64,000 bases of DNA from IMG/VR virus record IMGVR_UViG_3300037067_007801, positions 1-64,000 of that record, one strand, 5' to 3'. The stretch comes from a virus (lineage: Duplodnaviria; Caudoviricetes). Position 1 is the first letter of the stretch, and every line of letters begins with the position of its first letter. The notes under the pieces are model-generated. The model saw only the letters and a list, made by a program, of their open reading frames with translations. It was not told the DNA's origin and searched no databases. Positions 1 to 59,722 of this stretch are shown here, one piece after another. The position numbers and the translations under genes were made by a program.

Positions 1-212
1 AAGGCCTCGTTCCCGAAGCTGAGCACGGTGGGCGGCTATCTCTATTGCAGCGGCGCGGACACGAAGTGCTCGTTCCCGAAGCTGAGCACGGTGGGCGGCT
101 ATCTCTATTGCAGCGGCGCGGACACGAAGGCCTCGTTCCCGAAGCTGAGCACGGTGGGCGGCGGGCTCTATTGCAGCGGCGCGGACACGAAGGCCTCGTT
201 CCCGAAGCTGAG
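1..212 (+). repeat. 63-bp tandem repeat, about 3.3 copies visible
   Basis: Units start at 1, 64, 127 and 190 (aaggcctcgttcccgaagctgag...). Confidence 0.95.
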
Positions 213-56588: not shown

Positions 56589-56894
56589 ATGACGTACTGT
56601 GCCTTCCCACCGATACCGATCCCTGCGTTCGCGCTCCCTGCGATTCCGCTTCCCGCACTTCCGAGCTTCGTCATCCCGACGTTGCCAAATCTGCCAGGGC
56701 TCCCGATGATAGCGATCCCGGCGTTCACTTTGCCAGCGATACCGATCCCGGGGCTGCCGAGTTTTTCCATCCCATCATGGTCAAGCCTGCCGGGTTTGCC
56801 GATGATTCCGATCCCGGCGTTCGCTCTGCCTGCCATCCCCTTCCCGGCACTCCCTAGTTTTACGATCCCGTCTCTGTTTTGCGTTCTGGACTAG
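56589..56894 (+). CDS. Pro/hydrophobic repeat protein (three 32-aa repeats)
   Basis: IPAF.LPAIP.P.LPSF units at 56619, 56715, 56811; synonymous divergence supports coding. Confidence 0.6.
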   Translation: MTYCAFPPIPIPAFALPAIPLPALPSFVIPTLPNLPGLPMIAIPAFTLPAIPIPGLPSFSIPSWSSLPGLPMIPIPAFALPAIPFPALPSFTIPSLFCVLD

Positions 56895-56951
56895 AAACGA
56901 TACAGAAAAAACAGGTCAGTTTCCCCACCTACAAACCCTAAACTTTATCAC

Positions 56952-56980
56952 TTGACACCATCAACCAAAGGGTTTATATA
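56952..56980 (+). promoter_or_regulatory. sigma70 promoter with operator-like spacer driving the RAMP-array cassette
   Basis: TTGACA-cca-TCAACC-aaag-GGTTTA-TATA; degenerate second site CAAACC-ctaa-ACTTTA at 56932-56947. Confidence 0.75.
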
Positions 56981-57012
56981 CCTCTCATGGTCATCTAACA
57001 GGAGGGTACGAA

Positions 57013-57678
57013 GTGGCACACAGAACGAAGAGGGTAACACTCACCGGGTTGACTCCGCTCATCATGCACAAGGACGGGATGGACTTCGAGGGTCGCATCA
57101 AGTCGTGGCGCATGAACCCGGCGAACAAAGACTTGCAGGTCAAGGGCGACGACCGTTCCCCCGCGTGGACGTGGATTGGCAGCGTCTACCACGACGGGAA
57201 GATGGTCGGCATCCCGAGCGACAACATCATGACGGTGTTGCGAGAGGGCGGAACGAAGGTCCCGACCGGCAAGCGACAGGGGACGTTCAAGCGCCAGTCG
57301 CAGACGGGAATCATCGTCATGGAACCGCTATGGCTGTTGACGACGGCGGAAGGAAACCAAGTCGAAATCGCCGACATCAACGTCATGCTCGACGAGACCG
57401 ATTTCGACAAGCAGGTGGAGGCGGCGCGCAAACTCAACATCTCCCTGTTCGTCAAGCGCGCAAAGTTGGCGACCTCGAAGAACGTTCGCGTGCGTCCCAT
57501 GTTCGCAGCCGGGTGGAATATCAGCGGGACGGTCAGCATCACGGACAACAGCATCACGGACAGCGTGTTCTCGGACATCCTCATGATGGCCGGGGACCTG
57601 AGCGGCCTGTGCGACTGGCGTCCGAGTTCTCCGAAATCGCCGGGACCTTACGGAAGGTTCACGGCGGAGGTGAAGTAG
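57013..57678 (+). CDS. Solitary RAMP/Cas7-like protein
   Basis: VTLTGLTPLIMH, GIPSDNIMTVLREG, RVRPMF..W, Gly-rich AGDLSGLCDWRP...GPYGRF C-terminus; AGGAGG RBS. Confidence 0.7.
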   Translation: MAHRTKRVTLTGLTPLIMHKDGMDFEGRIKSWRMNPANKDLQVKGDDRSPAWTWIGSVYHDGKMVGIPSDNIMTVLREGGTKVPTGKRQGTFKRQSQTGIIVMEPLWLLTTAEGNQVEIADINVMLDETDFDKQVEAARKLNISLFVKRAKLATSKNVRVRPMFAAGWNISGTVSITDNSITDSVFSDILMMAGDLSGLCDWRPSSPKSPGPYGRFTAEVK

Positions 57679-57684
57679 ACACGC

Positions 57685-58369
57685 GGTTCTCGGCGCGGCC
57701 AGGCACGGCGAGCCGGGGTGTGGCACGGTCCGGCAAGGCAAGGAGCGTGGTCCGGATGGGCATGGCACGGCGAGTCGAGGCACGGCGAGGCACGGTTCCT
57801 GGCAAGGCAGGGCGAGGCCGGGCGCGGTCCGGCAAGGTGAGGATCATGGACGGCAGGGCATGGCGGGTCCAGGTGCGGCGAAGCAGGGCCGGGCGTGGCA
57901 AGGATCGTGACACGGCGCGGTGCGGTGAGGTTGTGCGTGGCAAGGCGAGGTTCCAGGTAGGTCTGGGCCAGGTGCGGCGTGGCTGTGCTAGGCGAGGGTT
58001 AAGGCATGGCAGTGCGCGGCAGGGTCGGGCATGACACGGTGTGGCAAGATTTGGATAGGTTGGGAATGGCAAGGTTGGGTAGGGCGAGGCAAGGAACTGG
58101 GTGTGGCGCGGTGTGGCATGGTCGGGTCCGGTACGGAGCGGCCTGGCAAGGCGAGGATCGTGGCGTGTCAGGGTTAGGTAGGGCACGGTGTGGTGAGGCG
58201 AGGAACGCGGTGCGGCGGGATCAGGTTAGGCATGGTGTGGCCTGGCGCGGCGAGGAACGGGGTGAGGCATGGTTCGGTGCGGCACGGCAGGGCGGGGAAA
58301 GGCGAGGATCCCGGCAAGGTGGGGTGAGGCGTGGTCAGGCAAGGCAAGGTGTGGCGCGGCAAGGAACAT
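57685..58369 (+). ncRNA. GGY-NN pentamer array in 12 units; candidate guide-RNA array
   Basis: Strict 5-nt phase, about 100 of about 119 pentamers begin GGC/GGT; 13 heptamer linkers mostly GGWWC-NN; starts 6 nt after the RAMP-like stop. RNA status is inferred, the repeat itself is certain. Confidence 0.75.
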
Positions 58370-58393
58370 GGTACAATTTCTAAGGAGGAAAAC

Positions 58394-58849
58394 GTGAGCA
58401 AGTCGAAAATGTACTTCGGTGGTGTTCCGACGGAGCCGGATGTTCGGCGACTGTTGGACAGATATGGGCGTCCGCAGCAAGGCCAGGTGATGGCCTACGA
58501 CGAGGTGGCAACCGTCGTCGGGATTCGGCGCGAAGACTCTCGGTTCAAGACCGTGACAAATGCTTGGCGCAAGGCCATCTATTCGAGCTACAACATCGTC
58601 ATCGGCACGCGACCGGGGGTTGGATTCGTCGCCCTACAGGAACCGGAGAGACTGGACTACGGCTCGCGGAAGTTTCGGTGTGGAATTCGCCAGATCAAGA
58701 GATCGCACGGCGTGATCTCCGGGTGTGACGAAATGAAACTCACTCCGGAACAACGCGGCCACAAGCAGCACGACGAGATGGTTTCGGCTCACTTGATATT
58801 GGCCGGGCGTCTGGAAGCCAGACGCTTGCAGTCATCGAGTGGAAAGTAG
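58394..58849 (+). CDS. Unknown protein closing the RAMP-array cassette
   Basis: TAAGGAGG RBS, GTG start 24 nt after the array; basic 151 aa. Confidence 0.7.
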   Translation: MSKSKMYFGGVPTEPDVRRLLDRYGRPQQGQVMAYDEVATVVGIRREDSRFKTVTNAWRKAIYSSYNIVIGTRPGVGFVALQEPERLDYGSRKFRCGIRQIKRSHGVISGCDEMKLTPEQRGHKQHDEMVSAHLILAGRLEARRLQSSSGK

Positions 58850-58858
58850 AGGGACCCA

Positions 58859-59722
58859 ATGGACTGGTTCAAACTCCCGATTCTCATCCTCATCCTAGGC
58901 CTCCCCACGTGCTCCCCAATCGATTTCCAGGCCGGACCCCTCCCACCCATACAAGACGGTGGTTCAGACGACTCCACGGACTCCCAAACCGACACCATTG
59001 AGGATTCCGGGACCGACGGTGACAGCGATTCGGACACGGACGTGGACAGCGACACGGACACGGGGCCGGATACTGGCACCGAGACTGACACCGAGAGTGA
59101 AACTGGAAGCGACACGGACACCGACGTCGACACAGACACAGACACAGACACAGACACGGACTCGGATACCGATACCGATACCGATACCGAGATCCCGGAC
59201 CCGTGCACTGGTCCAGGCACATGGCTCGACGATGGTTGGTGGTTCGACTTCCTCCCGGACTATCCGGGCGGCGATATGACGTACCTTGGCACCCGTTGTT
59301 GGCAGGACCCGCCGGCTCCGGAACTCATGGAGTGGACCGCGGCCGTGGACTACTGCGCTGACCTCGTGCTCGCCGGGTACGACGACTGGATCCTGCCCGA
59401 CGTCAACCAGCTCCGTTGGCTCGGGCGGCCGACCACATGGGAGTGTGCCGACTGCGGGCTGATTGCTCCTGACCATCTGGCCGAGTCGGACATCGAAGAC
59501 TGCGAGGCGTGCCTGCCGTTGTTCGGTGGGGCTGGTGCTGGAGGATGTTACTGGGATCCTGCACTGGGCGGAACATGCTCCTACTACTGGAGTTCTTCGG
59601 AGCAGTCCGGGTATCCACTTAACCGAGTATGGGGCTGGTCGTTCGCCGGAAATGACCCCGGACTCGTCGCGTCCAACAAGACCGGATCGCTTGGCTACAC
59701 TCGCTGCGTGAGGTCGCTGTGA
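58859..59722 (+). CDS. Lipoprotein with Asp-Thr repeat linker and DUF1566-like domain
   Basis: Hydrophobic leader plus Cys; DTDTDT tract about 58980-59210; WQDPP...MEWTAAVDYC...GYDDWILPDVNQL...YWSSS. Confidence 0.75.
   Translation: MDWFKLPILILILGLPTCSPIDFQAGPLPPIQDGGSDDSTDSQTDTIEDSGTDGDSDSDTDVDSDTDTGPDTGTETDTESETGSDTDTDVDTDTDTDTDTDSDTDTDTDTEIPDPCTGPGTWLDDGWWFDFLPDYPGGDMTYLGTRCWQDPPAPELMEWTAAVDYCADLVLAGYDDWILPDVNQLRWLGRPTTWECADCGLIAPDHLAESDIEDCEACLPLFGGAGAGGCYWDPALGGTCSYYWSSSEQSGYPLNRVWGWSFAGNDPGLVASNKTGSLGYTRCVRSL

What the first reader, a model, noticed from the sequence alone, without database searches (positions are those of the whole stretch)
57013..57678. Solitary RAMP/Cas7-like gene with no cas operon and no CRISPR array
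Seen: 221 aa with an N-terminal strand VTLTGLTPLIMH, a GIPSDNIMTVLREG strand-helix, RVRPMF..W, and a terminal Gly-rich loop GLCDWRP...GPYGRF. Established: this order mirrors RAMP proteins (Cas7/Csm3/Cmr4: L...TPLHIG, IPGSSLKG.LR, G-rich loop), which polymerise along guide RNA with fixed periodicity. Inference: one subunit per pentamer forms a filament on the adjacent array RNA. No nuclease or cas gene is adjacent, so binding-based silencing of competing phages or host defence genes is more likely than cutting.
Basis: partly seen in the sequence, partly recalled or inferred. Interest (0 to 1): 0.9.

Follow-up and report, generated by a model that had tools for sequence, protein, structure and literature searches.

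The report
Phage VIPR system: Vipr plus guide array
The lone Cas7-like gene is the Vipr protein of a VIPR system, a phage-borne, CRISPR-related RNA-guided DNA silencer first described in 2026, here complete with 12 five-base-repeat guide RNAs and an accessory gene; it is real but belongs to a published kind.

Summary

Directly after its stop codon lie 130 YNNGG pentamers in 12 head-to-tail units (57679-58364). A 151-aa winged-helix-like accessory gene (vap, 58394-58849) follows.

In 95 of 100 homolog loci the same pentamer arrays flank the gene. They are always on its strand and never on the other strand across 746 kb. The accessory gene is present in 77 of the 100 loci. Phages whose Vipr is 94% identical carry unrelated NN letters.

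This is therefore a VIPR system (bioRxiv 10.64898/2026.04.26.720920, .720927, 2026.10.15.759431).

It is not new. This scan has already noted VIPR on other DNA (187 findings in at least 153 genomes).

Local particulars:
- The array is compact and has no tails. Units are joined by a conserved CRAGG-AA junction that shifts the phase by 2 nt.
- The cassette sits inside the baseplate operon of a myovirus.

I found no natural target.

The parts
56952..56980 (+). Promoter-like site TTGACA-17 nt-TATATA, 32 nt upstream of the vipr start codon
   Evidence: Read directly from the sequence. It does not pass the strict rule of the consensus scan, which needs T at position 6 of the -10 hexamer. It is an inference only.
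57013..57678 (+). vipr: 221-aa RAMP (Cas7-like) guide-RNA-binding protein
   Evidence: ORF. phrog_4652. 1,270 homologs. AF2 model with pLDDT 92.6. Cas7/Csm3 fold. Profile match to SUSP1 Vipr (PDB 36pp_D), E 5.9e-18. hhalign to a Felixounavirus Vipr at 99.3% probability, E 7.8e-21.
57679..58364 (+). vrRNA array: 130 YNNGG pentamers in 12 head-to-tail units. Unit coordinates: u1 57679-57743, u2 57746-57795, u3 57798-57842, u4 57844-57903, u5 57911-57950, u6 57953-57997, u7 58000-58094, u8 58097-58156, u9 58164-58203, u10 58211-58260, u11 58263-58307, u12 58310-58364
   Evidence: Autocorrelation peaks at lags 5, 10 and 15 (0.50, 0.48, 0.45, against about 0.27 elsewhere). Phase map and Viterbi parse. 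Position 1 is a pyrimidine in 94% of pentamers, position 4 is G in 95% and position 5 is G in 93%; all 16 NN dinucleotides occur. It is the only such array on either strand of the 87.6-kb contig.
58383..58389 (+). Ribosome-binding site AAGGAGG for the accessory gene, directly after the last guide unit
   Evidence: Read from the sequence.
58394..58849 (+). vap: 151-aa Vipr accessory protein, a winged helix plus a long helical hairpin, predicted to bind DNA
   Evidence: Homologs lie next to vipr on the same strand in 77 of 100 loci. AF2 model with pLDDT 92.9. Only weak Foldseek matches, nearly all to winged-helix DNA-binding proteins (best E 8e-3). hhalign to the vap1-position gene of a Felixounavirus gives 75% probability, E 2.6e-5. 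No Pfam or PHROG match.

Best explanation
The cassette vipr (57013-57678), vrRNA array (57679-58364) and vap (58394-58849) is a complete VIPR (Viral Interference Programmable Repeat) system. It is carried as a moron inside the baseplate operon of a myovirus.

Shown here:
- The protein is a sequence and fold homolog of the experimentally characterised SUSP1 Vipr.
- It keeps the residues reported to hold the two guanines of each repeat.
- It is followed on the same strand by canonical YNNGG repeats in units of 8-19.
- This protein-array-vap linkage holds across the family.
- The NN letters turn over between near-identical phages.

Inferred from the published homolog:
- The array is transcribed with vipr and cut into about 12 guide RNAs.
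- Vipr protomers coat each guide, one per pentamer, hiding GGY and presenting the NN pairs.
- The filament binds double-stranded DNA that matches NN-x-NN-x (the 1-nt skip rule) and blocks transcription of the target.
- Vap, a small winged-helix protein, enhances the effect.
- The likely targets are genes of competing mobile elements or of the host. The composition of the NN letters fits codon positions 1-2 of coding sense strands.

The actual targets remain unknown.
For: Homology:
- The family profile matches PDB 36pp_D 'SUSP1 Vipr protein' at E 5.9e-18 over profile positions 6-203.
- hhalign to a Felixounavirus Vipr gives 99.3% probability.

Functional residues:
- In those alignments SUSP1 H17, R138, D177, W178 and R179 fall on H19, R161, D201, W202 and R203. 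These residues are described as G1/G2 contacts in 10.64898/2026.04.26.720927.
- All five are invariant or at least 90% conserved in this family.

Fold:

Array:
- 130 YNNGG pentamers in 12 units.
- Arrays are present in 95 of 100 homolog loci, all on the vipr strand and within 1.35 kb of the gene. None is on the opposite strand in 746 kb.

Vap:
- Present in 77 of 100 loci.

NN turnover:
- Phages with 94% identical Vipr at the same baseplate site carry 6-7 units with unrelated NN but the same unit ends.

NN composition:
- It fits codon positions 1-2 of the sense strand best among the six phases tested: -3.98 against -4.09 to -4.46 bits per dinucleotide.

Phage context:
- Sheath, tape measure, two baseplate hub proteins and a wedge subunit flank the cassette.
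- The record is a virus record.
Against: No natural target was found.
- On the phage's own contig, the guides score no better under the 1-nt skip rule than order-shuffled guides (the same NN pairs in random order), and no better than under skip rules 0, 2 or 3.
- They also score no better under the 1-nt skip rule than under skips 0, 2 or 3 on 822 kb of related loci.
- Eight exact scans of six full or nearly full guides, six of IMG/VR and two of JGI metagenomes, gave nothing.

The array also lacks the structured 3' tail of the characterised type II vrRNAs, and no ribozyme is detected. How the units are separated is therefore unknown.

Expression, processing and RNP formation are untested. Homology of vap to vap1 is only probable (75%).
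Confidence: 0.9

Rival explanations
1. It is the same VIPR machinery, but aimed at host genes (for example anti-phage defence or restriction genes) and not at rival phages or satellites. On this reading it works as an RNA-guided counter-defence.
For: No phage target was found in IMG/VR by exact scans. Earlier notes of this scan report guides in other VIPR loci that spell motifs of host defence genes (unchecked leads). The NN composition fits coding sense strands in general and says nothing about whose genes they are.
Against: Published natural targets are satellites, prophages and other VIPR systems (10.64898/2026.10.15.759431 abstract). The host of this phage is unknown, so I could not search host genomes. 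The exact-match scans were insensitive to targets with mismatches.
Confidence: 0.25
2. It is an orphan or decayed CRISPR-Cas Cas7 gene, left over from a type III or type VII effector operon, with no working guide.
For: The closest solved folds, other than Vipr itself, are Cas7 of type VII and Csm3 of type III.
Against: There is no cas gene or CRISPR array in the window. The family is far closer in sequence to SUSP1 Vipr (E 6e-18) than to any Cas7 chain; no Cas7 chain reached E 10. The family is highly conserved, with 25 invariant columns. It travels with pentamer arrays in 95 of 100 loci.
Confidence: 0.02
3. The 5-nt periodic tract is not a guide array. It could be a protein-coding low-complexity region, or a G-quadruplex-forming or other structural DNA element that merely lies next to the gene.
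For: Long spurious ORFs cover the tract in several frames on both strands. GG every 5 nt could in principle form two-tetrad quadruplexes (my inference).
Against: A 5-nt period with +2 phase slips is incompatible with a reading frame. The tract is strand-locked to vipr in 95 of 100 loci. GGY is fixed while NN is free, and NN is replaced wholesale between 94%-identical phages. That is the published vrRNA signature.
Confidence: 0.02

Closest known systems
Type II VIPR of Escherichia phage SUSP1 and other Felixounaviruses (Vipr, vap1, vrRNAs; PDB 36pp; bioRxiv 10.64898/2026.04.26.720920 and .720927)
   Same: The Vipr proteins are homologous (E 5.9e-18; 99.3% probability), and the G1/G2-binding residues are conserved. 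The repeats are YNNGG/GGY-NN, on the same strand as vipr, in units of about 9-16. A small accessory gene of about 150 aa lies next to vipr, with probable remote homology. Both are phage-borne and have no cas genes.
   Different: Vipr identity is only about 22%. This clade has a 13-residue insertion around residues 125-140, a 7-residue insertion in the G-loop (SSPKSPG), and an invariant GDDRSPAW motif that SUSP1 lacks.

In the Felixounavirus locus examined here, a SUSP1 relative (phage tootiki, L101), the vrRNA repeat runs are separate and each is followed by non-repeat sequence, the published structured 3' tail. Here 12 units abut head to tail with 2-nt or 7-nt junctions and no tail. The gene order is vipr-array-vap, against vipr-vap-array in Felixounavirus.
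VIPR 'staggered' vrRNA arrays (fig. S18 legend of 10.64898/2026.04.26.720920)
   Same: [quoted passage not shown] This matches the abutting units here.
   Different: The legend speaks of 1-nt overlapping positions. Here the units are set apart by a conserved CRAGG pentamer plus a 2-nt (mostly AA) phase slip. The figure itself and the type assignment are not held, so identity of the two architectures could not be checked.
CRISPR-Cas Cas7-family RAMPs (type VII Cas7, Csm3, Cmr4, Cas7-11)
   Different: There is no cas operon, no CRISPR array and no second RRM. The period is 5 nt, against 6 nt for Cas7. The guide information sits inside the repeats and not in spacers. The published target is double-stranded DNA, bound without cleavage.

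Membership tests
VIPR system | Vipr protein with a RAMP fold (RRM core, thumb, G-loop) | tested here: met
VIPR system | Sequence homology to an experimentally characterised Vipr | tested here: met
   The family profile matches PDB 36pp_D, SUSP1 Vipr, at E 5.9e-18. hhalign to a Felixounavirus Vipr gives 99.3% probability, E 7.8e-21.
VIPR system | Residues that hold G1 and G2 of each GGY (SUSP1 H17, R138, D177, W178, R179) | tested here: met
   They align to H19, R161, D201, W202 and R203, which are invariant or at least 90% conserved in 55 family members. Their roles are taken from 10.64898/2026.04.26.720927.
VIPR system | Adjacent same-strand YNNGG tandem repeats (at least 4; typically 9-16 per vrRNA) | tested here: met
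   12 units of 8-19 pentamers, 130 in all. Y 94%, G 95% and G 93% at the fixed positions. Family-wide linkage in 95 of 100 loci.
VIPR system | GGY conserved while NN is hypervariable among close relatives | tested here: met
   Loci with 94% identical Vipr (L102-L109) carry 6-7 units with unrelated NN and the same CRAGG unit ends.
VIPR system | Minimal locus: vipr plus one accessory gene (vap), with no cas genes and no CRISPR array | tested here: met
   The 151-aa gene is linked to vipr in 77 of 100 loci, always on the same strand. No cas-like Pfam match. No CRISPR-like repeat.
VIPR system | DNA targets that match the guides under the 1-nt skip rule | tested here: inconclusive
   Nothing above control level on the phage's own contig or in 822 kb of loci. 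No exact match in IMG/VR or JGI metagenomes. The exact scans cannot see targets with mismatches, and the host is unknown.
VIPR system | vrRNAs expressed, processed and bound by Vipr; transcriptional silencing | not testable with these tools
   Needs small-RNA sequencing, pull-down and a reporter assay.
VIPR type II (SUSP1 / P. fulva clade) | Each vrRNA ends in a conserved structured 3' tail (pseudoknot in the SUSP1 clade) | tested here: not met
   Units abut with 2-nt or 7-nt junctions. In the Felixounavirus locus each repeat run is followed by non-repeat sequence of about 30-100 nt, where the published tail lies. No Rfam structure in the tract.
CRISPR-Cas class 1 effector (Cas7 subunit) | Encoded in a cas operon next to a CRISPR repeat-spacer array | tested here: not met
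   The neighbours are baseplate genes, vap and a lipoprotein. No repeat-spacer array in the window.

The most novel reading that the evidence does not exclude
The compact array may represent a way of delimiting guides that has not been described for VIPR. In this clade the units carry no tail and no ribozyme. They end in a conserved CRAGG pentamer followed by a 2-nt (mostly AA) slip of the pentamer phase.

The slip itself could stop one Vipr filament and start the next, or mark a cleavage site. If so, a single 690-nt transcript would yield 12 guides, or one multi-guide filament, without any structured handle.

This may simply be the published 'staggered array', whose figure I could not see.
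Probability: 0.2. Interest if true: 0.5.

Novelty: new member of a known kind. Interest (0 to 1): 0.28.

Why it matters
VIPR is a recently described RNA-guided system in which the guide information is stored inside 5-nt repeats, and it is proposed to predate CRISPR. This locus adds a well-defined, canonical GGY/NN member from a high-GC environmental myovirus. It has one of the larger arrays in its clade (about 690 nt, against a median of about 300 nt) and a clear tail-less unit architecture. Close relatives show wholesale guide turnover at a fixed genomic site. It is useful as a comparative data point and as a candidate for mapping how tail-less arrays are processed. It does not change what is known about the system.

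Tried and rejected
Target searches under the published 1-nt skip rule, all negative:
- The 12 guides against the phage's own 87.6-kb contig. Best scores equal those of order-shuffled guides and are no better than under skips 0, 2 or 3.
- 495 guides parsed from 103 related loci against this contig.
- The window's guides against 822 kb of fetched loci.
- Exact scans of units 1, 3, 4, 8, 10 and 12 in IMG/VR, and of units 8 and 12 in JGI metagenomes. Zero hits.
- A 16-base seed of unit 8 gave 13 IMG/VR hits. Their flanks extend at chance level; the best is 21 of 24, which is not significant after 13 tries.

Other attempts:
- Rfam found no family, hammerhead included, in 56800-59000.
- The strict promoter and terminator scan found nothing convincing for the cassette.
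- Relatives of the genome could not be drawn, because the record is a virus record. Host genomes were therefore not searched.
- The VIPR type (I-VII) could not be assigned. The paper's tree, figures and data tables are not held.
- Foldseek gave no match with E of 0.001 or better for Vap.

Full report
**Observation**

The ORF at 57013-57678 (+ strand, GTG start, 221 aa) is listed and has an AGGAGG ribosome-binding site just upstream. They fall on invariant or nearly invariant columns of a 55-member family alignment.

Pfam finds nothing. PHROGs gives a full-length match to phrog_4652, of unknown function (E 9e-15). A search of about 5.8 billion proteins returns 1,270 homologs, nearly all unnamed metagenomic proteins of 217-230 aa, many on phage-sized contigs.

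**Fold**

An AlphaFold2 model built on the alignment is confident (mean pLDDT 92.6, pTM 0.88). Foldseek against the PDB gives 66 matches at E of 0.001 or better. The top ones are type VII Cas7, Csm3/Csm5, Cmr4 and Cas7-11 (best E 2.2e-6).

**What it is**

A first-stage note on the same stretch used the word 'VIPR-like', which led me to the literature. Two April 2026 preprints describe Viral Interference Programmable Repeat systems.

- A small phage-encoded RAMP, Vipr, coats guide RNAs (vrRNAs) made of 9-16 YNNGG repeats.
- One protomer binds one repeat, hiding GGY and presenting the NN dinucleotides.
- The complex binds double-stranded DNA that matches NN-x-NN-x, the 1-nt skip rule, and silences transcription.
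- Loci are minimal: vipr plus one accessory gene, vap. They have no CRISPR array and are mostly viral.

Two October 2026 preprints extend this.

**Membership tested here**

- *Sequence.* A profile of the family matches PDB 36pp_D, 'SUSP1 Vipr protein', at E 5.9e-18 over positions 6-203. The next PDB match has E 1. hhalign against the Vipr of a Felixounavirus gives 99.3% probability, E 7.8e-21.
- *Residues.* In these alignments the SUSP1 residues reported to hold the two guanines (H17, R138, D177, W178, R179) fall on H19, R161, D201, W202 and R203. All are invariant or at least 90% conserved in this family. E71 and M72, of the pyrimidine pocket, align with D70 and N71.
- *Clade-specific differences.* This clade has an insertion around residues 125-140, a 7-residue insertion in the G-loop, and an invariant GDDRSPAW motif that SUSP1 lacks.

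**The array**

From the base after the stop codon to 58364 the + strand has a strict 5-nt period. Autocorrelation is 0.50, 0.48 and 0.45 at lags 5, 10 and 15, against about 0.27 elsewhere.

A phase map and a Viterbi parse resolve 12 head-to-tail units of 8-19 pentamers, 130 in all. Position 1 is a pyrimidine in 94%, positions 4 and 5 are G in 95% and 93%, and all 16 NN dinucleotides occur. This is the only such tract on either strand of the 87.6-kb contig.

Units end in CAAGG or CGAGG and are followed by a 2-nt slip (AA, AT or TT), or by 7 nt, before the next unit. There is no structured tail and no Rfam family, ribozymes included. In the Felixounavirus locus, by contrast, the repeat runs are separate and each is followed by non-repeat sequence, the published structured 3' tail.

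**Family-wide linkage**

I fetched 80 viral and 20 genomic loci that encode homologs.

- 95 of the 100 have GG-pentamer arrays. Of the 79 with adequate flanks, 77 do.
- All arrays are on the vipr strand, within 1.35 kb of the gene (median distance 103 nt).
- None is on the opposite strand in 746 kb.
- Parsing gave 495 units in 103 loci, mostly 8-14 pentamers. 58% end in CAAGG or CGAGG. The commonest junction is a 2-nt gap (97 cases), then a 7-nt gap (48 cases).

The tail-less, phase-slip architecture is therefore a trait of the clade. It may correspond to the 'staggered arrays' named in the paper's fig. S18 legend, but the figure is not held.

**The accessory gene**

The 151-aa ORF at 58394-58849 starts 4 nt after an AAGGAGG site that directly follows the last unit. 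Its homologs lie next to vipr, on the same strand, in 77 of 100 loci.

Its model (pLDDT 92.9) is a winged helix followed by two long helices. Foldseek gives only weak matches, nearly all to winged-helix DNA-binding proteins. hhalign to the gene in the vap1 position of a Felixounavirus gives 75% probability, E 2.6e-5, colinear over 104 columns.

I read it as the vap of this clade, of the DNA-binding kind and not the nuclease kind. This fits silencing rather than cutting.

**Context and turnover**

The flanking genes are tail sheath, tape measure, two baseplate hub proteins and, downstream, a baseplate wedge subunit. The cassette therefore interrupts the baseplate operon of a myovirus. The record is a virus record.

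Eight metagenomic contigs encode a Vipr that is 94% identical, at the same site. Their arrays have only 6-7 units, with unrelated NN letters but the same unit ends. Guide content is replaced while protein and scaffold are kept, as published for vrRNAs.

**Targets**

- On the phage's own contig, no guide scores above order-shuffled controls, or above skip rules 0, 2 and 3. This agrees with the published absence of self-targeting.
- Relatives' guides do not hit this phage.
- The window's guides do not hit 822 kb of fetched loci.
- Exact scans of six guides in IMG/VR and two in JGI metagenomes found nothing.
- A 16-base seed gave only chance-like hits.
- The NN composition fits codon positions 1-2 of sense strands better than the five other phases: -3.98 against -4.09 or worse, in bits per dinucleotide. 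This weakly supports coding-sequence targets with the wobble base skipped.

The targets remain unknown. The exact scans were insensitive to mismatches, and the host could not be named.

**Verdict**

The system is a member of a kind published in 2026, and this scan has already noted it on other DNA (187 findings in at least 153 genomes).

The only locally new points are descriptive: the tail-less array with its 2-nt phase slip, the size of the array, the baseplate insertion site, and guide turnover among near-identical phages.

Noticed in passing
window 56589-56894 (+): A 101-aa ORF built from 2.7 copies of a 96-nt (32-aa) repeat rich in PIPAFALPAIP-like motifs, just upstream of vipr. It has no Pfam or PHROG match. 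Among 100 homolog loci it is found only in L075. No gene is called at the corresponding place in the 94%-identical relatives, which have an uncalled stretch of about 420 nt there on the vipr strand.
   Followed up: partly
window 58859-59722 (+): A 287-aa protein with a signal or lipoprotein-like N-terminus, a long D/T/S-rich low-complexity linker (6-nt and 18-nt DNA repeats) and a C-terminal Lcl_C domain (PF07603, E 6e-9). It lies between vap and the wedge genes. It looks like a second moron, travels with the cassette only in close relatives, and is not a general VIPR component.
   Followed up: partly
window 1-212: A near-perfect 63-nt tandem repeat, 3.4 copies at 95% match, at the very start of the contig. 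It is not a CRISPR-type repeat-spacer array. Its nature is unknown.
   Followed up: no
window 57145-57174 (Vipr residues 45-54): The motif GDDRSPAW(T)W is invariant across this Vipr clade (G45, D46, D47, P50, W54). It has no counterpart in the characterised SUSP1 Vipr, where the aligned segment is unrelated. Its role is unexplained.
   Followed up: partly
L102 7035-7538 (and L103-L107, L109): Gene callers gave the vap of the close relatives a 167-aa product whose first 16 or so codons run into the vrRNA array. This is probably an annotation artefact caused by the stop-poor G-rich repeats. The same effect produces long spurious ORFs over the array in the window (56952-58034, 58006-58383, and three on the minus strand).
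   Followed up: partly
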